Shown here one piece after another: positions 2,858 to 35,769 of a DNA stretch of 64,000 nucleotides. Positions within the stretch are counted from its first letter, which is position 1. Each line of letters starts with the position of its first letter. This DNA is from an uncultured Candidatus Saccharibacteria bacterium (GTDB lineage Bacteria; Patescibacteriota; CAZHWT01), in assembly GCA_964597145.1 (NCBI GenBank), contig CAZQWH010000001.1:166441-230440 (forward strand), given 5' to 3'. The notes below the pieces were generated by a model. It made no database searches and had not been told where the DNA came from. It saw nothing but the letters and a program-made list of their open reading frames with translations. A program made the position numbers and the translations under genes.

Positions 2858-4204
2858 ATGACTGCTGTCCAAATTAGATGTTGGTTTCAAACTCTGGTTG
2901 CGCATCCCGCTTTTCGTGATATTAATGCGCGGTATGCGGATCTGATGCATTACCCTCATGCCGATCGCTTAGCCATCCGTGTATTGTGGCTGCACGGGAT
3001 AGCCTTGGTCGTATTAGTTATAGTTAATGCCTTTTATCAAACACCGCTTATAATTCCTTCACCCTTCGGTTGGCGGGTAATCGGCGTTGAAGCTGGGCTC
3101 ATAGCACTACTACTCGGATTGGCGGCCACAATTACTCCCATCATGTTATACCGCCGGATTGAAAACCATTTTCTATGGCGATTAGTGCTAGCTACCGCCT
3201 TACTAACCTATTCGTATTTGCTTGTTTTTATTAGCGGCGGCGCAATTGAAATGCACTTCCACTTTTTTATTATTATGGCCTTTATGTCTTTATATGCCGA
3301 TTGGCGGATTGGCTGGTACATGTTTGGCCTAATCACCGTTAACCATTTACTGTTCAATGTATTTTGGCCAGATATGTTGTATTTTTACGGCCACAACGAT
3401 TTATCACCTTTGGTGCATTTACCGTTCATGTTTATCATGACCCTCTTTACCACCATTCTATGCCGCAATTATCGGGGGTCGGTAGCAGCCTTGGTCGCCG
3501 CTAAAAACCGTAATGATGAGTTCTTGGCCATTGCCAGCCATGAGTTAAAAACTCCCCTCACCAGCATGAAAGGGTATACCGAAATGTTGCACCGCAAGTT
3601 TAAACGAGTCTCAGATACAAGCTCGTTGGCCTATATTGAGAAATTAGATGATCAACTCAATAAAATAATCGGCTTAGTCCGGGATTTATTAGATATCTCG
3701 CGTATTCAATCGGGCCAAGTCCAGATTCGGCAGGAGTTAGTCTCGGTTGAATCGCTCGTCGAGAAGGCGGTGGACGAGGTTCAGTCGCTAACGCATCAAC
3801 ATCAAATTGAAGTCGTAGGGGACAAGCGAGTCATGGTCTATGGAGATAAAGCCCGGTTATCCCAACTACTCGTTAACTTATTATCGAACGCCATTAAATA
3901 TTCTCCAGAAGCCGATCGGGTTATTGTATCCATAAAAGCTGCTCGCGACCGCGTTGTAATTGAAGTGCAAGATTTTGGGATTGGCATATCGGTTACGGAA
4001 AAAGTGAAAATTTTTGAGCCGTACTTCCGCGGCCAGGCTCAACAACGAGAAGAGGTCCCAGGCGGTTTGGGTATGGGGTTGTACATCTGCGACGAAATTG
4101 TGCGGCGGCATCAAGGACGGCTATGGGTAGAAAGTACGGTCGGGCAGGGCTCAACCTTTTCCTTTCTCCTTCCTCTACCCCCTCGGGATGGAGGTATACC
4201 GTGA
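2858..4204 (+). CDS. Sensor histidine kinase with multi-TM N-terminal sensor, HisKA and HATPase_c domains
   Basis: Five or six hydrophobic helices. H-box FLAIASHELKTPLTSMKGYTEML. ATPase N, G1 and G2 boxes (LLSNAIKYS, DFGIGI, GGLGMGLYIC). Confidence 0.85.
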   Translation: MTAVQIRCWFQTLVAHPAFRDINARYADLMHYPHADRLAIRVLWLHGIALVVLVIVNAFYQTPLIIPSPFGWRVIGVEAGLIALLLGLAATITPIMLYRRIENHFLWRLVLATALLTYSYLLVFISGGAIEMHFHFFIIMAFMSLYADWRIGWYMFGLITVNHLLFNVFWPDMLYFYGHNDLSPLVHLPFMFIMTLFTTILCRNYRGSVAALVAAKNRNDEFLAIASHELKTPLTSMKGYTEMLHRKFKRVSDTSSLAYIEKLDDQLNKIIGLVRDLLDISRIQSGQVQIRQELVSVESLVEKAVDEVQSLTHQHQIEVVGDKRVMVYGDKARLSQLLVNLLSNAIKYSPEADRVIVSIKAARDRVVIEVQDFGIGISVTEKVKIFEPYFRGQAQQREEVPGGLGMGLYICDEIVRRHQGRLWVESTVGQGSTFSFLLPLPPRDGGIP

Positions 4205-4554
4205 GTAAAACCGTCTTTATCGTCGATGACGATGTAGCTATCCTTGAAGTTTTAAGTATTGTCTTAGAAGAAGAAGGTTATAACGTTGTAACCGATACCG
4301 GTAGCAAAATGCTGGCGATCACCGCCTCAACTCAACCCGATATTATTTTACTAGATATTTGGATGCGTGGCATCGACGGTCGGGAGTTGTCACGAGAGGT
4401 AAAAGCTAATACTGCATTATCAGCCATCCCGATTGTTCTAATGTCAGCCCACAGTCACGCTGATTCCGTAATCGAAGAAGCGAAGGCCGATGATTTTATT
4501 GAAAAGCCATTTGATATCGAATCCATGTTAAAAGTGGTCCGGCAGCATGTTTAA
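4201..4554 (+). CDS. Single-domain response regulator (CheY-like receiver)
   Basis: GTG at 4201 preceded by GGAGGT and overlapping the kinase stop (GTGA). VSKTVFIVDDD...ILLDIWMRGIDG...IVLMSAH is a receiver domain with no output domain. Supplied ORF 4123 starts inside the kinase. Confidence 0.75.
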   Translation: MSKTVFIVDDDVAILEVLSIVLEEEGYNVVTDTGSKMLAITASTQPDIILLDIWMRGIDGRELSREVKANTALSAIPIVLMSAHSHADSVIEEAKADDFIEKPFDIESMLKVVRQHV

Positions 4555-31330: not shown

Positions 31331-31707
31331 TCTAAAAGGAGGATGGTTGGCCGCACCGGTCTCTCCGCCAATTGGCGGGCACTGGTGAGGAAAGTCCAGA
31401 CTGCGCAGAGCAAGTGACGGGGTGCAAGCCCCGACGGGTAACCGCTGGTGTCCGTCGTCGTATCCTACTAAACAGACGACGGAACGGAGGGTGAATCAAC
31501 ACTCTTCGAGAGCAACAGAGACGAGTAGGGATGAAACGGGCAATCCCAGCTGCAGCAACCTCCGATCGTGTCGTTATGAGTTGGCTCGACCAGACACAAA
31601 GACGAGGGCACCCTGGAACGCGAGGACCAGGGCGGGCAATCGCCTGACGATTGTCCGAGATAGATGGCACAACTAAAACAGAATCTGGCTTACAAGCCTC
31701 CTTTTAG
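31331..31707 (+). ncRNA. rnpB: RNase P RNA (bacterial type A)
   Basis: P4 5' strand GAGGAAAGTCCAGAC and 3' strand ACAGAATCTGGCTTA carry compensatory changes (CCGG/CCGG to CCAG/CTGG). GGGTGAA P10/11 region. P1 pairs TCTAAAAGGAGG with CCTCCTTTTAGA. Confidence 0.85.
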
Positions 31708-31883
31708 AACCTAGAAGAAAGCAATAAAATAGTGAATAGAGGTAATTTTACTTGTTTTGAAGCATTATTTTGAATTTTGTCTAAATTCCATCGTTTACTA
31801 TTTAATAATTTCCCAGTATGATTAACAGGCGGACATAAGTATTCTGCCACTATAAGAGTATAATAATTACCCGGAGTTTATCT

Positions 31884-32495
31884 ATGGCATCTCATTCAAT
31901 GAATAAAGCCCTCGAAGCCTTATTTATTTCTAAAGTACGAATTAAATTACTCGAAGTATTCTTAATTAATCCAGGCTCATTTTTATATGTCCGTGAATTA
32001 GTTCGATTAGTCGATGAAGAAGTGAACGCCGTGCGGCGGGAATTGACTCGTTTGCAAAAAATTGGCATGCTGCGATCAGAGGAGAGAGCCAATCGGTTGT
32101 ATTATCAATTACGAACCGACTTCACCTTCTTCCCCGAATTATTACGGATGTTTGCCAAAACCACCGATCTGGGTGGCGACATTGTTACCCATGCTGCTGA
32201 GCTGGGCAAAATTAAGCATGCAGTGCTCTCGGCCGCGTTTGTTAAAGGTCGAGTGGCTCGAAATTACGAAATTGACTTGCTTATTATTGGCCGAGTTAAT
32301 TCGGCCATTCTAGATGAGATTGTCAAAACCGCGCAACAACGGCATGGACACGAGATAAACTATACAATTATGACCGAAGAGGAGTATGCTTTCCGTAAAG
32401 GCCGGCGCGATCCATTTGTCATGTCTTTCCTCCAGCAAACCTGGGTCAACCTTATCGGTGATGAAGAAGAATTGGTTAAGCTGGAGCGGCAATAA
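31884..32495 (+). CDS. Winged-helix DNA-binding protein fused to a degenerate MNT-like (nucleotidyltransferase-fold) domain
   Basis: N-terminal wHTH (KVRIKLLEVFLINPGSFLYVRELVRLVDEEVNAVRRELTRLQKIGML). C-terminal VLSAAFVKGRVARNYEIDLLIIG resembles the MNT LFGSxARG-x5-SDIDLLV motif with GS replaced by AA. Confidence 0.5.
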   Translation: MASHSMNKALEALFISKVRIKLLEVFLINPGSFLYVRELVRLVDEEVNAVRRELTRLQKIGMLRSEERANRLYYQLRTDFTFFPELLRMFAKTTDLGGDIVTHAAELGKIKHAVLSAAFVKGRVARNYEIDLLIIGRVNSAILDEIVKTAQQRHGHEINYTIMTEEEYAFRKGRRDPFVMSFLQQTWVNLIGDEEELVKLERQ

Positions 32496-32917
32496 TGACC
32501 GCTGCTGGACGGTCTGAAGCTTGGTTAAAGCAAGCCGGGTTCGATCTTGAAGCAGCCCGACTAAGTCTTCAACACGGTTACTTTGAATGGGCTAGTTTTC
32601 AAGCCCAGCAGTCGGCCGAGAAGGCGTTAAAAGGCTTACTTGTATTTTTAGATGGATATGCTCCACGCGGACATCGTTTGGGCGGCTTGTTGGGAATGGC
32701 AAATCGGCTTGATCCGCAGGTAAAAGAGGAAATTAGGGTTTCACACGCCGCTTTGGAGGCGGCTACCTTTATATCCCGGTATCCATTTGCTATCCCGGCC
32801 CAAAAAATGAGTCCACATGAATTTATTGAAAAGGAGGATGCCGAAGAATGTCTCGCCGAAGCGACCGATATTTATCACCAAATCACGAATTTCGTCAGCA
32901 ATTACAAGCAGCCGTAG
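32495..32917 (+). CDS. HEPN domain protein (classical HEPN paired with minimal nucleotidyltransferase)
   Basis: ...AEKALKGLLVFLDGYAPRGHRLGGLL...FISRYPF matches the HEPN R-x4-6-H region and the C-terminal (Y/F)xxRYP motif. Start overlaps the upstream stop (TAATG). Confidence 0.7.
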   Translation: MTAAGRSEAWLKQAGFDLEAARLSLQHGYFEWASFQAQQSAEKALKGLLVFLDGYAPRGHRLGGLLGMANRLDPQVKEEIRVSHAALEAATFISRYPFAIPAQKMSPHEFIEKEDAEECLAEATDIYHQITNFVSNYKQP

Positions 32918-33207
32918 CAGATCTGGTTAAAGAGTTTTCTCCTGAGAAAATATACTTGTTTGGTAGTCTAGTTGAAGGCCAGGCTCGTCCCGAATCCAGC
33001 GCGGATATACTCATTATCGCATCTAGTGTTGCCACAACCCGGTTTATTGCTCGGATTAAGCGGGCCATCAAAGCGGCCAACACCCTGCCACATATTGCGC
33101 CTTTGGTATATACTCCAGAAGAGGTGGAGTTATTGCAACAACAGGGAGATGGGTTTATCCAAGATGTCCTCGACGATGGTAAGTTGCTCTATGAAAAGAA
33201 AAAGTAG
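32848..33207 (+). CDS. Minimal nucleotidyltransferase (MNT) partner of the HEPN protein
   Basis: IYLFGSLVEGQARPESSADILI is the GS-x9-D-x-D pol-beta NTase motif. The only canonical start (ATG 32848) overlaps the HEPN gene by 70 nt. Confidence 0.7.
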   Translation: MSRRSDRYLSPNHEFRQQLQAAVADLVKEFSPEKIYLFGSLVEGQARPESSADILIIASSVATTRFIARIKRAIKAANTLPHIAPLVYTPEEVELLQQQGDGFIQDVLDDGKLLYEKKK

Positions 33208-33280: not shown

Positions 33281-34690
33281 ATGAACATACGCCGAACCTT
33301 TTGGGTAATCATTATTCTAACTCTGGTAGCCGTTGTCATCGATTTACCTCGTATTCCGCTCAAATTCGACATCGCTGGCTGGAAGGTTGATACCGTTATT
33401 GCAGGCCCAGACCTCAATTTGACCACTTTAGGCATCCCTATTCAACGCCCGTTAGATATTAAGCAAGGCTTGGATTTGCAAGGTGGAACCCAAGTTGTAC
33501 TTGAGCTTGACATGTCAAAAATCTCGGGCTCAGAGCAGCAAGCAGCGGCCGATGCAGCCGTAAGTGTATTAGAGAATCGAGTCAACTACACTGGTGCAAC
33601 CGAAGCCGTAGTCCAGCCCGCTAGAGTAGGGGATGACTATCGGGTTTTAGTGGAATTACCCGGCGTGTCTAATACCGATCAAGCCATTGCTCTAGTTGGC
33701 CAAACTGCCCAACTAGAATTTCGTGAGTTTATAGATCCCGCCTCAGCTGCTGGAACCATCCCCACCTTAGAAAATACCAAATCAACTGGCTTGGGCGGTA
33801 ACGATTTAAAATCGGCAGTAGTAGACACTCAAAACCCAACTTCGCCAATGGTGGCCATCACCTTTACCGCCGAAGGTGGCAAAAAGTTTGCCGACCTTAC
33901 CAGTCGCCTTGTCGGGCAACCATTACCTGTTTTCTTAGACAACGTACCTCTAACGGCGCCAACGGTTCAAAATGCAATTATGGATGGAAGAGCAGTTATT
34001 AATGGTAGTTTTACTATAGAATCGGCCAAGCAACTGGCCCTTCAGTTATCAGCTGGAGCATTACCAGTGCCAATCAATGTAGTAGAACAACGCACCATTG
34101 GAGCCACTCTTGGCCAAGATTCGGTCAACAAAAGCTTGGTCGCGGGCAGCATTGGCTTAGTACTGGTCATGCTCTATATGCTGCTTAACTATCGTAAACT
34201 TGGGGTGGTCGCCGATATTGCCTTAGTACTCTATACCCTATTTAGCCTCGCCTTAATTATCTGGATCCCAATTACCTTAACTCTAGCTGGCATTGCTGGA
34301 TTAATTTTATCGATTGGCATGGCGGTTGACGCCAATATTCTCATTTTCGAACGGCTACGGGAAGAGTTGCGTCGTGGTAGTAAAATTCGGGCCGCCATTG
34401 AAATTGGTTTCGATCGAGCCTGGCCATCCATCCGCGACTCCAATATTTCAACGCTCATTACCTGCGTTATTTTGTACCTGTTTGGCACAGGAACCGTCCG
34501 TGGATTTGCTCTAACGCTGGGTCTAGGAGTGCTTGTTTCAATGTTTACGGCCGTAGTGGTAACCAGAACATTCTTGCGTTTACTCTATGGTAGCGGACAG
34601 TTATGGACAAAAAAAGCGAAGCGTAATGCGCAACTATCTCGATATCGGTCGGCTCGCCAGTCCGAACTACCTGCCCAAGGGAGCACCTAG
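33281..34690 (+). CDS. secD: Protein translocase subunit SecD
   Basis: N-terminal TM helix, large periplasmic domain, six C-terminal TM helices with the ...GIAGLILSIGMAVDANILIFERLREE... signature. Confidence 0.85.
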   Translation: MNIRRTFWVIIILTLVAVVIDLPRIPLKFDIAGWKVDTVIAGPDLNLTTLGIPIQRPLDIKQGLDLQGGTQVVLELDMSKISGSEQQAAADAAVSVLENRVNYTGATEAVVQPARVGDDYRVLVELPGVSNTDQAIALVGQTAQLEFREFIDPASAAGTIPTLENTKSTGLGGNDLKSAVVDTQNPTSPMVAITFTAEGGKKFADLTSRLVGQPLPVFLDNVPLTAPTVQNAIMDGRAVINGSFTIESAKQLALQLSAGALPVPINVVEQRTIGATLGQDSVNKSLVAGSIGLVLVMLYMLLNYRKLGVVADIALVLYTLFSLALIIWIPITLTLAGIAGLILSIGMAVDANILIFERLREELRRGSKIRAAIEIGFDRAWPSIRDSNISTLITCVILYLFGTGTVRGFALTLGLGVLVSMFTAVVVTRTFLRLLYGSGQLWTKKAKRNAQLSRYRSARQSELPAQGST

Positions 34691-34695
34691 TCACT

Positions 34696-35769
34696 ATGTC
34701 GGAATCTGCCCCTCATATAGACAAATCAATACATGTCTCAGCTCGGGCCAAGTCAGAGTCCGGGCCAAATCTCGAAACGCAGCCGGTGTTTGATTTTGAA
34801 GAGTTGCGTCAAACGCTACTTGAGCAAGTTGAGTTATTGCAAAGACAGTTTAAAGTTAAACACCGTAACTTGCTGCGTTGGGCTAAGAAACAAGGGTACA
34901 CTTTGCACTTTTTGGCCGATTCGTCTGCCAAGGTAGCCGTAACTGGCGGCTTGATTGGCAGTTTATTAGCTGGGGCGCCGCAACAGATCGCCCAACAATC
35001 CCTCGATCAATCGCCCTATCGTACAGAAATAGTCAACCAAACTCAAGCTCCCAAGTCCGAGGCGGCCGTCCGCCAGAAAGACCAAATGACCGTCATGGCG
35101 ATCCGGCAAAAGCAAGTTGCCGAGCAGCAACAAGCCATGGACACCTTATTGCAGATGAGCCAAGGGACACTCGGCTTAGCCAGTTCGACCACGGCCGCGG
35201 AATTAACCGCCCATCTCACCAATATTCCAGCAGTCAGCGATTTAGAAGGCTATCGTTTAAATACCAACGTCGGTCGCATTGGGGCAGAGCAGCATTTATA
35301 TCGGTATCCTGGAGATAATTTAAATGAGCATTTTAGTTCACCACAAGACCGAGCCATGCACCAATCATCGGGCTTTGCCCCAGGCTTGGGGGCGTATGGG
35401 TATTTTGCTCCGTCTAAAGCGGCTATGACCCCAGAAATCGCTCAGCGAGAAAAATACTATGTAGCTATTCAAACCTTCCTCTCGCCCAACTGGCAGGGTA
35501 ATGTTAACCAAGCCTACAATTGGTTTAAATATCGCAAGGTTGTGGTGTACCATCCAGTTACCCGTAAGGCGGTGGTTGCGGTAGTCGGTGATGCTGGGCC
35601 AGCCTGGTCTACGGGTAAAAATTATGGTGGCTCCCCAGAAGTAATGAGAGCGCTCAACGCGCACGATGGGTACGGGAGCCCTCCAGTCATGATGTTTTTT
35701 GTCAATGATGATCCAGACAATCCGGTACCGCTCGGTCCAGTCGACTTTGAGTTGCCGCCACTAGAATAG
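34696..35769 (+). CDS. Hypothetical protein with C-terminal RlpA/3D-like (DPBB-fold) domain
   Basis: C-terminal VVVYHPVTRKAVVAVVGDAGPA...GGSPEVMRAL resembles the RlpA/MltA-3D motif V-x-V-x-N..G-x-S-V-x-V-x-DRGP...IDLS. N-terminal half unrecognised. Weak call. Confidence 0.35.
   Translation: MSESAPHIDKSIHVSARAKSESGPNLETQPVFDFEELRQTLLEQVELLQRQFKVKHRNLLRWAKKQGYTLHFLADSSAKVAVTGGLIGSLLAGAPQQIAQQSLDQSPYRTEIVNQTQAPKSEAAVRQKDQMTVMAIRQKQVAEQQQAMDTLLQMSQGTLGLASSTTAAELTAHLTNIPAVSDLEGYRLNTNVGRIGAEQHLYRYPGDNLNEHFSSPQDRAMHQSSGFAPGLGAYGYFAPSKAAMTPEIAQREKYYVAIQTFLSPNWQGNVNQAYNWFKYRKVVVYHPVTRKAVVAVVGDAGPAWSTGKNYGGSPEVMRALNAHDGYGSPPVMMFFVNDDPDNPVPLGPVDFELPPLE

What the first reader, a model, noticed from the sequence alone, without database searches (positions are those of the whole stretch)
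31884..33207. Three-gene wHTH/degenerate-MNT + HEPN + MNT module immediately downstream of rnpB
The classical HEPN (R-x4-6-H, RYP) and MNT (GS-x9-DxD) pair is preceded, with a 1 nt TAATG overlap, by a 203 aa protein. That protein has an N-terminal winged helix and a C-terminal MNT-like domain in which the catalytic GS is AA and the DxD is ExD. It is likely an inactive MNT repurposed as a DNA-binding regulator or decoy. The gene order regulator-HEPN-MNT, with a 70 nt HEPN/MNT overlap, is atypical for HepT/MntA toxin-antitoxin pairs, where MNT usually comes first. HEPN proteins are RNases, and the module abuts the RNase P RNA gene, so it could be an RNA-targeting addiction or defence module with an extra regulatory layer.
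Basis: partly seen in the sequence, partly recalled or inferred. Interest (0 to 1): 0.55.

Follow-up and report, generated by a model that had tools for sequence, protein, structure and literature searches.

The report
HEPN–MNT cassette beside orphan regulator
The three genes are real. They are a common, self-contained HEPN/MNT toxin-antitoxin-like gene pair that landed next to an unrelated, widely conserved regulator-like gene in one small bacterial lineage, so this is a modest variant of known systems, not a new three-part machine.

Summary
All three ORFs, the TAATG junction, the 70-nt HEPN/MNT overlap and an upstream RNase P RNA are present. Two motif claims are wrong. The "classical" MNT is GS-X10-S-A-D and has Ala at the third catalytic carboxylate. 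The HEPN has no conserved R-x4-6-H; its conserved residues are H60 and R95-Y96-P97.

The first protein (P1) is an ArsR-like winged helix plus a degenerate MNT domain, homologous to PDC-M05A. It was found in at least 574 genomes of Patescibacteria (candidate phyla radiation, CPR). In 72 of 80 sampled loci secD follows it directly, and none of the 80 has a HEPN or MNT nearby.

Relatives of the HEPN form stand-alone HEPN→MNT pairs in 68 of 80 metagenome loci, usually with a 58-nt overlap and never with a P1-like gene. They also occur on Thermus plasmids. This is the uncharacterised "Class II" HEPN/MNT module.

The triad occurs only in close relatives of this genome (P1 77-81% identical to the window in the three loci examined). 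There all three genes stay intact although synonymous sites are saturated. The rnpB adjacency is not conserved.

Best reading: an old insertion of a Class II cassette into the P1–secDF operon, with an MNT that probably can no longer AMPylate.

The parts
31335..31708 (+). RNase P RNA (bacterial type A, reduced). It is a neighbour, not part of the module.
   Evidence: RF00010 at 79 bits, E 1.2e-23, model positions 1-367 of 367, below the gathering score of 100. The adjacency is not conserved in relatives.
31854..31870 (+). Probable promoter -10 region of P1 (TATAAT at 31859-31864). The string AAGAGTATAATAATTAC is shared with relative L084.
   Evidence: Read from the sequences. The consensus scan did not list this site, and its overall count of sites was about that expected by chance. 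This is an inference only.
31884..32495 (+). P1: ArsR-like winged helix (about residues 1-80) plus a degenerate MNT-like domain (about residues 95-200). Motif is A117-A118, ten residues, E129-I130-D131, with E157 and N159 on the next strand. It is an orphan homologue of PDC-M05A.
   Evidence: PADLOC PDC-M05A E 1.2e-32 over the full length. AF2 pLDDT 88. Foldseek to ArsR/HlyU and to MntA. hhalign to MNT 97.4%. Family survey.
32495..32917 (+). HEPN protein of the classical PF05168 ("HEPN-T", Class II) type. Conserved E42, K43, H60 and R95-Y96-P97.
   Evidence: PF05168 at 90 bits. Closest solved chains are 1wol, 1ufb and 1o3u. Invariant columns. No PADLOC hit.
32848..33207 (+). MNT of the cassette, starting 70 nt inside the HEPN gene. 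GS is kept, the first Asp of DxD is Ser51, and the third carboxylate is Ala84. It is predicted to be catalytically impaired.
   Evidence: PF18765 and PF01909. Alignments. All 18 clade homologues share the S and A/T substitutions.
33281..34690 (+). secD, the gene that directly follows P1 in genomes without the cassette.
   Evidence: 72 of 80 loci have secD 351 nt or less downstream of P1.

Best explanation
The locus is a composite of two units with separate histories.

1. **P1** is a conserved lineage gene of Microgenomates-type Patescibacteria. It has an ArsR-like winged helix fused to an MNT-like domain and is homologous to the A subunit of the two-gene candidate defence system PDC-M05. Here it lacks the M05B partner and has a decayed GS/DxD motif. 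I infer that it is a DNA-binding regulator of its own operon, P1-secD-secF.

2. **HEPN+MNT** is a self-contained "Class II" HEPN/MNT cassette (PF05168/PF01909, COG2250/COG1708 type). Its normal layout is HEPN first, with the MNT start about 58 nt inside the HEPN gene. I infer that an ancestor of this narrow clade acquired the cassette between P1 and secD.

3. **Expression (inferred).** The HEPN start now abuts the P1 stop and no terminator-like site follows. The cassette is therefore most likely transcribed from the P1 promoter and translationally coupled.

4. **Mechanism (inferred).** If the HEPN is a toxin, it would be an RNase using the alternative H60/R95 site proposed for this family. The MNT would restrain it. 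This clade's MNT has lost two of the three metal-binding carboxylates, so it would act by stoichiometric binding and not by AMPylation of the conserved Tyr96.

Parts 1 and 2 rest on comparative data, apart from the two inferences flagged in them. Parts 3 and 4 are inferred.
For: **P1 on its own**
- 574 of the first 600 pattern matches in species-representative genomes encode a relative.
- In the 80 best loci, 72 have secD at a median gap of 20 nt (maximum 351 nt) and none has a HEPN or MNT within 4 kb.

**The cassette on its own**
- Of 80 metagenome loci with HEPN relatives (33-48% identity), 68 are HEPN→MNT, 49 of them with exactly a 58-nt overlap. Three are MNT→HEPN. None has a P1-like winged-helix gene.
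- The same layout, with a 74-nt overlap, sits inside a cobalamin operon on a Thermus plasmid. Relatives occur on 58 plasmid records.

**The triad in a narrow clade only**
- It was found only in L001, L082 and L084 (P1 77-81% identical to the window).
- The next relative examined, L083 (58%), has a MazE-like gene in that position.

**Retention**
- Nonsynonymous differences per site (pN) are 0.06-0.16 for P1, 0.14-0.28 for HEPN and 0.23-0.35 for MNT. Synonymous differences per site (pS) are 0.71-0.94, that is, saturated.
- There is no compositional anomaly and no flanking repeats.

**MNT decay**
- S51 where 67 of 68 cassette MNTs have D. A84 where 56 of 68 have E or D.
- In MntA, D39, D41 and D71 bind Mg, and the DxD→ExE or GS→AT substitutions abolish AMPylation (PMC7641770).

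**HEPN type**
- PF05168 only. The invariant H60 and R95 fit the alternative active site proposed for this family (PMC3710099).
Against: - P1 is homologous to PDC-M05A, whose natural partner is a HEPN-like gene immediately downstream. A HEPN in exactly that position, with overlapping stop and start, could be more than coincidence.
- The cassette has been kept across saturated synonymous divergence, which is unusual for a purely selfish pair and hints at integration with host genes.
- The sampling is capped (600 pattern matches, best 80 loci per scan), so cassette-bearing lineages elsewhere could have been missed.
- No toxicity, RNase or AMPylation data exist for any Class II pair (PMC7641770).
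- Calling the MNT inactive rests on homology to MntA mutants. E49 or other residues might compensate.
Confidence: 0.65

Rival explanations
1. A true three-component system. P1, a PDC-M05A-type winged-helix NTase, is a working partner of the HEPN as its transcriptional repressor, its binding or modifying antitoxin, or both. The crippled MNT serves as an adaptor or second antitoxin.
For: - P1 matches PDC-M05A over its full length (E 1.2e-32).
- Real PDC-M05 pairs place a HEPN-like gene directly after the A gene, overlapping or adjacent.
- The P1 stop and HEPN start overlap in the window, L001 and L084.
- The three genes are co-retained over long divergence.
- P1 and MNT decay in complementary ways: P1 keeps E-x-D but lacks GS, and MNT keeps GS but lacks two carboxylates.
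Against: - None of the 80 sampled P1 loci outside the clade has a HEPN.
- The HEPN and its family match no M05B model, and hhalign to M05B gives probability 0.9%.
- HEPN relatives always bring their own MNT and never a P1-like gene.
- The AA and E-x-D variants of P1 also occur in P1 genes without a cassette, so they did not arise in response to it.
- L082 has a 4-nt spacer (locus positions 1035-1039) instead of the overlap.
Confidence: 0.15
2. A domesticated, non-toxic pair. The HEPN and the inactive MNT form a nucleotide- or RNA-binding regulatory complex that serves the secDF operon or the cell envelope, with no toxin-antitoxin behaviour left.
For: - Class II HEPNs lack the RX4H RNase motif and have never been shown to be toxic (PMC7641770).
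- The MNT catalytic residues are lost, yet the protein stays under purifying selection.
- The position inside a housekeeping operon has been stable over long divergence.
- Fused MNT-HEPN proteins typically lack the predicted RNase residues and are proposed to be domesticated TA systems (PMC3710099).
Against: - Every family-invariant polar residue of the HEPN (E42, K43, H60, R95; also Y96, which is at least 90% conserved) is kept. This argues that the original activity is intact.
- The pair is absent from nearly all related genomes, so it is not needed for secDF function.
Confidence: 0.15
3. An RNA-targeting module functionally tied to RNase P RNA.
For: rnpB ends 175 nt upstream of P1 on the same strand.
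Against: - In L084, which carries the same triad, rnpB lies about 3 kb upstream on the opposite strand, beyond comM.
- No rnpB is present in the 6 kb upstream in L001, or in the sequence held for L082 (437 nt upstream) and L083 (3.2 kb upstream).
- Stand-alone cassettes occur in many unrelated contexts.
Confidence: 0.02
4. The triad is ancestral to the P1 family and the HEPN+MNT pair was lost in most lineages.
For: P1 descends from a family (PDC-M05A) that normally has a HEPN-like partner.
Against: - That partner, M05B, is a different family from this HEPN.
- The nearest outgroup HEPNs (44-50% identity and below) sit in stand-alone HEPN→MNT pairs.
- This reading would require dozens of independent precise losses.
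Confidence: 0.03

Closest known systems
[quoted passage not shown] 2020 (PMC7641770) and predicted by Makarova et al. 2009 (PMC2701414)
   Same: - The HEPN is PF05168 with the conserved Tyr and without RX4HXY.
- A small MNT of PF01909/PF18765 is adjacent.
- Relatives form mobile two-gene units, including on plasmids.
- The closest structures are TM0613, TT1696 and ST-type HEPNs.
   Different: - The MNT of this clade lacks the GSX10DXD signature (S51) and the third carboxylate (A84).
- The pair is embedded in a host operon and has been vertically retained.
- No biochemistry exists for this class, so how it works is unknown.
HepT/MntA type VII toxin-antitoxin (Shewanella SO_3166/SO_3165, Class I)
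   Same: A HEPN-fold protein paired with a minimal nucleotidyltransferase. MntA structures are the top fold matches for the P1 C-domain.
   Different: - Different HEPN family (not DUF86; no RX4HXY).
- Reversed gene order.
- The MNT scores 31.5 bits against a cut-off of 60 for the NCBIfam MntA model.
- The catalytic DxD and the D71 equivalent are missing, so AMPylation is unlikely.
PDC-M05 candidate defence system (PADLOC): M05A is an ArsR-like HTH plus a KNTase-like NT, and M05B is HEPN-like
   Same: - P1 has the M05A architecture and matches all five M05A models, the best at E 1.2e-32.
- It aligns at 26-30% identity over 92-97% of its length to plasmid M05A proteins.
- A HEPN-fold gene follows P1 directly.
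   Different: - The HEPN here is not M05B (no model match; hhalign 0.9%).
- P1 lacks the canonical GS/DxD that plasmid M05A proteins keep.
- In most genomes P1 has no partner at all and is followed by secD.
ArsR/SmtB-family winged-helix repressors (HlyU, CzrA, SmtB)
   Same: The fold of P1 residues about 10-95 (Foldseek probability 1.0, target TM about 0.7).
   Different: Sequence scores are far below family cut-offs (20 bits against 55). The C-terminal MNT-like domain replaces the usual dimerisation and metal-sensing helices.

Membership tests
HepT/MntA type VII TA (Class I HEPN/MNT) | Toxin of PF01934 (DUF86) or PF08780 carrying RX4HXY | tested here: not met
   Only PF05168 matches and no NCBIfam family matches. 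The conserved residues are H60 and R95-Y96-P97. R22-x4-H27 is not conserved.
HepT/MntA type VII TA (Class I HEPN/MNT) | Antitoxin MNT with GSX10DXD plus a third Mg-binding Asp (D71 in MntA) | tested here: not met
   G39-S40, ten residues, then S51-A52-D53. A84 aligns to the third carboxylate. The NCBIfam MntA model gives 31.5 bits against a cut-off of 60.
HepT/MntA type VII TA (Class I HEPN/MNT) | MNT gene upstream of the HEPN gene | tested here: not met
   HEPN is at 32495-32917 and precedes MNT at 32848-33207.
HepT/MntA type VII TA (Class I HEPN/MNT) | MNT AMPylates a Tyr of the toxin and thereby neutralises it | not testable with these tools
   This needs biochemistry. Sequence predicts loss of activity, by analogy with the MntA D39E/D41E mutant (PMC7641770).
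Class II HEPN/MNT (PF05168/PF01909) | HEPN protein of PF05168 lacking RX4HXY but with a conserved Tyr | tested here: met
   PF05168 at 90.3 bits against a cut-off of 22. Y96 is conserved in at least 90% of sequences.
Class II HEPN/MNT (PF05168/PF01909) | Adjacent small MNT of PF01909 | tested here: met
   PF01909 at 29.1 bits (cut-off 21) and PF18765 at 42.1 bits (cut-off 26.9).
Class II HEPN/MNT (PF05168/PF01909) | MNT keeps GSX10DXD | tested here: not met
   S51 replaces the first Asp in the window and in all 18 clade homologues. 67 of 68 stand-alone cassette MNTs have D there.
Class II HEPN/MNT (PF05168/PF01909) | Self-contained, mobile two-gene unit | tested here: met
   68 of 80 relatives are HEPN→MNT pairs in varied contexts. 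Relatives occur on 58 plasmid records, 19 of them conjugative.
PDC-M05 (PADLOC candidate defence system) | A subunit: ArsR-like HTH plus KNTase-like NT, about 200 aa | tested here: met
   P1 against PDLC04368: E 1.2e-32, residues 8-199 matching model positions 5-197 of 201. The domain description comes from bioRxiv 10.1101/2024.09.26.614923.
PDC-M05 (PADLOC candidate defence system) | B subunit (M05B) encoded next to A | tested here: not met
   The window HEPN and 25 relatives match no M05B model. hhalign to plasmid M05B gives probability 0.9%. Real M05B proteins score E 1e-61.
PDC-M05 (PADLOC candidate defence system) | Protection against phage | not testable with these tools
   One cold-seep PDC-M05 protected E. 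coli against at least one phage. Nothing is known for P1.
Bacterial RNase P RNA, type A (RF00010) | Score at or above the Rfam gathering threshold over the full model | tested here: inconclusive
   79 bits against a gathering score of 100, but E 1.2e-23 over model positions 1-367. The L084 orthologue scores 78.3 bits.

The most novel reading that the evidence does not exclude
P1 is a domesticated PDC-M05A antitoxin that became a core regulator of the secDF operon in Microgenomates. In this lineage it has been re-coupled to a captured HEPN whose own MNT is catalytically dead. Two crippled NTase-like proteins would then jointly control one HEPN RNase: P1 at the DNA level, and possibly by direct binding or modification, and the MNT by binding. 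This would tie toxin activity to expression of the protein-export machinery.
Probability: 0.12. Interest if true: 0.6.

Novelty: new variant of a known kind. Interest (0 to 1): 0.33.

Why it matters
The finding mostly resolves into known parts: a Class II HEPN/MNT cassette and a relative of PDC-M05A. Three points have some value.

1. It is a natural case of a Class II MNT that has lost its catalytic carboxylates yet stays under selection. That could help test whether this abundant but unstudied class works through AMPylation at all.
2. A homologue of a toxin-antitoxin/defence antitoxin (wHTH-NTase) appears to have been fixed as a partner-less, secDF-linked gene in at least several hundred reduced CPR genomes. 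This would be an example of domestication.
3. PADLOC-type annotation could mislabel P1 as a defence component.

None of this opens a long-standing question.

Tried and rejected
- **Sequence search of solved structures.** Searches with P1 and with its C-domain profile found only winged-helix hits or noise. The NTase link needed profile and fold methods.
- **Conserved P1 operator.** The k-mers enriched upstream of P1 in 85 loci belong to the 3' end of a conserved upstream gene, not to an operator.
- **Insertion scars.** No flanking direct or inverted repeats and no GC anomaly mark the cassette.
- **Promoter and terminator scan.** Counts are at chance level. No terminator-like site lies between P1 and secD.
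- **dN/dS.** It could not be computed because synonymous sites are saturated, so only pN and pS are given.
- **Programmed frameshift fusing HEPN and MNT.** The MNT is in the +2 frame, but I saw no slippery heptamer in the overlap when reading the sequence. I dropped the idea.
- **Experimental work on PF05168-type pairs.** The library holds none beyond the statement that none exists.
Full report
**What is in the sequence.** Three same-strand ORFs lie at 31884..32495 (P1, 203 aa), 32495..32917 (HEPN, 140 aa) and 32848..33207 (MNT, 119 aa). The P1 stop (TAA, 32493-32495) shares one base with the HEPN ATG. The MNT ATG lies 70 nt inside the HEPN gene. Each start has a Shine-Dalgarno-like site, as read from the sequence. 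The HEPN matches PF05168 (E 1.2e-25), and the MNT matches PF18765 and PF01909. A full-length match to bacterial RNase P RNA lies at 31335..31708 (E 1.2e-23, 79 bits, below the gathering score of 100). secD starts at 33281 and comM lies upstream on the other strand. The window holds no other HEPN, MNT or P1-like gene.

**P1.**
- An AlphaFold model (pLDDT 88) shows two domains.
- The N-terminal domain matches ArsR/SmtB-type winged-helix repressors such as HlyU, CzrA and SmtB (Foldseek probability 1.0).
- The C-terminal domain, modelled alone (pLDDT 90), has MntA antitoxins as its best PDB matches (6m6u, 7bxo; probability 0.98, TM 0.44), followed by other minimal nucleotidyltransferases.
- Profile-profile comparison with the MNT family gives 97.4% probability and E 1e-11.
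- An MNT profile hits most of the P1 homologues tested, about 70 of 84, at E between 1e-4 and 1e-11.
- Four of 27 family members hit PF01909 directly.
- The hhalign register maps A117-A118 onto G-S, E129 and D131 onto D-x-D, and N159 onto the third carboxylate.
- P1 also matches the PADLOC model PDC-M05A over its full length (E 1.2e-32). PDC-M05 is a candidate defence pair made of an ArsR-HTH/KNTase-like protein and a HEPN-like protein. One example protected E. coli from at least one phage.

**P1 is a conserved gene that normally has no HEPN partner.**
- 411 homologues were found, and all the named ones are Patescibacteria (Curtiss-, Woyke-, Levy-, Gottesmanbacteria, WWE3).
- In species-representative genomes, 574 of the first 600 pattern matches encode a relative.
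- In the 80 best loci, 72 have secD starting at a median of 20 nt (maximum 351 nt) after P1, which leaves no room for a 0.7-kb cassette. Three more run off the contig.
- No HEPN or MNT profile hit occurs within 4 kb in any of the 80.
- Across 202 family members the GS position is variable (G 62% at 117; S only 13% at 118). D131 (94%), E157 (99%) and N159 (99%) are nearly fixed, and position 129 is D in 63% and E in 25%.
- Real PDC-M05 pairs on Burkholderia, Comamonas and Sulfuricella plasmids keep canonical GS…DxD in the A subunit and have an M05B gene directly downstream.
- P1 therefore looks like a partner-less, partly decayed descendant of M05A. Its constant position next to secDF suggests a regulatory role there, but that is inference.
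- I found no conserved operator.

**The HEPN+MNT pair is an independent cassette.**
- HEPN homologues at 59% identity or more to the window (by alignment A4) come from contigs of the same clade. The next nearest are 32-49% identical.
- Of 80 metagenome loci with such relatives, 68 have HEPN followed by an MNT that starts inside the HEPN gene. In 49 of them the overlap is exactly 58 nt. Three have the reverse order. None has a P1-like winged-helix gene.
- Individual examples are L085 (HEPN→MNT, divergent neighbour upstream) and L086 (MNT→HEPN).
- Relatives occur on 58 plasmid records. On Thermus thermophilus pAA229 the RefSeq annotation shows HEPN→NTase with a 74-nt overlap inside a cobalamin operon.
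- The closest solved structures are the uncharacterised HEPNs 1wol, 1ufb (TT1696) and 1o3u (TM0613).
[quoted passage not shown] It lacks RX4HXY, keeps a conserved Tyr, and has had no biochemical study. It is also the "HEPN-T" family, in which a second conserved His is proposed to substitute in the active site.
- The window HEPN keeps the family-invariant E42, K43, H60, R95 and P97, plus the highly conserved Y96.
- Neither the window HEPN nor its relatives match any M05B model. Profile comparison with M05B gives probability 0.9%.

**The MNT is the more degenerate enzyme.**
- In the window and all 18 close homologues the motif is LFGS, ten residues, then S-x-D.
- The strand that carries the third carboxylate reads [IVL]-[AT]-P-L.
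- In 68 stand-alone cassettes the corresponding residues are D (67 of 68) and E or D (56 of 68). hhalign confirms the register.
- In MntA these positions (D39, D41, D71) bind the two Mg ions, and D39E/D41E abolishes AMPylation and weakens neutralisation.
- AMPylation by this MNT is therefore unlikely. P1 (AA, ten residues, E-x-D) is equally unlikely to be active by the same mutational yardstick.

**The triad is conserved only in a narrow clade.**
- P1-HEPN-MNT-secD occurs in L001, L082 and L084 (P1 77-81% identical to the window).
- Matching contig lengths in the three hit tables suggest at least about ten more such contigs.
- The stop/start overlap of P1 and HEPN is present in L001 and L084 and is replaced by a 4-nt spacer (locus positions 1035-1039) in L082.
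- A 58%-identical P1 (L083) is followed by a MazE-like gene (PF04014, 2.6e-9).
- Between triad-bearing loci, synonymous sites are saturated (pS 0.71-0.94). pN is 0.06-0.16 for P1, 0.14-0.28 for HEPN and 0.23-0.35 for MNT, and all ORFs are intact.
- The cassette has no GC anomaly and no flanking repeats.
- The simplest history is one old insertion followed by vertical retention.

**rnpB.** In L084 the orthologous RNase P RNA lies 3 kb upstream on the opposite strand, beyond comM. L001 (6 kb upstream held), L082 (only 437 nt upstream held) and L083 (3.2 kb upstream held) show none. In eleven more distant genomes it lies about 2-4 kb upstream on the opposite strand, and in one (L034) on the same strand as P1. 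The adjacency in the window is a local arrangement and not a functional link.

**Mechanism and confidence.** The composite origin is well supported (about 0.8). I give the whole explanation 0.65, because how any Class II pair works is unknown. My preferred mechanism has three steps:
- The cassette is transcribed from the P1 promoter. There is no terminator-like site before secD, and a -10-like TATAAT is shared with L084.
- The MNT is translationally coupled to the HEPN.
- The MNT restrains the HEPN by binding.

The main rival (0.15) is that P1 has acquired a real role in controlling the HEPN, echoing the PDC-M05 layout. A second rival (0.15) is that the pair is no longer toxic.

**Caveats.**
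- Collection scans were capped at 600 matches and 80 loci.
- Gene starts in the surveys are longest-ORF calls.
- Fold similarity of the C-domain is modest.
- All activity statements are inferred from motifs.

Noticed in passing
L083, about 3990-4230 (+), just downstream of the P1 homologue at 3235-3825: A relative with 58%-identical P1 has a MazE/AbrB-type antitoxin gene (PF04014, E 2.6e-9) after P1, where the window has HEPN+MNT. The contig ends before any toxin or secD. The P1-secD junction may repeatedly capture toxin-antitoxin genes.
   Followed up: partly
L088-L167; window 32848-32917: In 49 of 68 stand-alone HEPN→MNT cassettes the MNT ORF starts exactly 58 nt before the HEPN stop, always in the +2 frame. 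The overlap is 70 nt in the window and 74 nt on the Thermus plasmid. Such a fixed, long overlap suggests obligatory translational coupling. I did not find it described in the papers I read.
   Followed up: partly
window 31335-31708; L084 971-1338: The RNase P RNA scores only about 79 bits, below the Rfam gathering score of 100, in both genomes. Large parts of the model are skipped and a 69-nt insertion is present. It appears to be a reduced or divergent CPR-type RNA, which the default Rfam thresholds miss (the scan did not list it).
   Followed up: no
window 34696-35769 (+); L001 8838-10200; L082 3257-4666; L084 7218-8667: In this clade secD and secF are separated by two extra ORFs. One is about 345-360 aa with no Pfam match. 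The other is about 107-112 aa and is DUF5663 in L084. Several other Microgenomates loci also show a gap of about 1.2 kb between secD and secF.
   Followed up: no
L168 (Thermus thermophilus pAA229) 1495-2182: A HEPN→NTase cassette (74-nt overlap) sits 9 nt after cbiB, inside a cobalamin-biosynthesis operon. This is another case of the cassette embedded in a housekeeping operon.
   Followed up: partly
L169, L170, L171 (Burkholderia, Comamonas and Sulfuricella plasmids): PDC-M05B proteins have no Pfam match. They share an R-N-x3-4-Y-[ED]-G motif that resembles a HEPN Rx4-6H motif with Tyr in place of His.
   Followed up: no
record titles of L009, L010, L013-L015 and many others: Many MAG records carrying this Patescibacteria-type P1-secD locus are titled "uncultured Gammaproteobacteria" or "Pseudomonadales", and one "Nanoarchaeia archaeon". 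These are probably mislabelled submissions.
   Followed up: no
upstream of P1 in many of L002-L081: A conserved gene ending in ...G-Q-I-W-I-E... lies 50-100 nt upstream of P1 in many genomes. It is a DUF3048 protein in L083. The wider synteny is therefore DUF3048-P1-secD-secF. In the window this position is taken by rnpB and comM.
   Followed up: no
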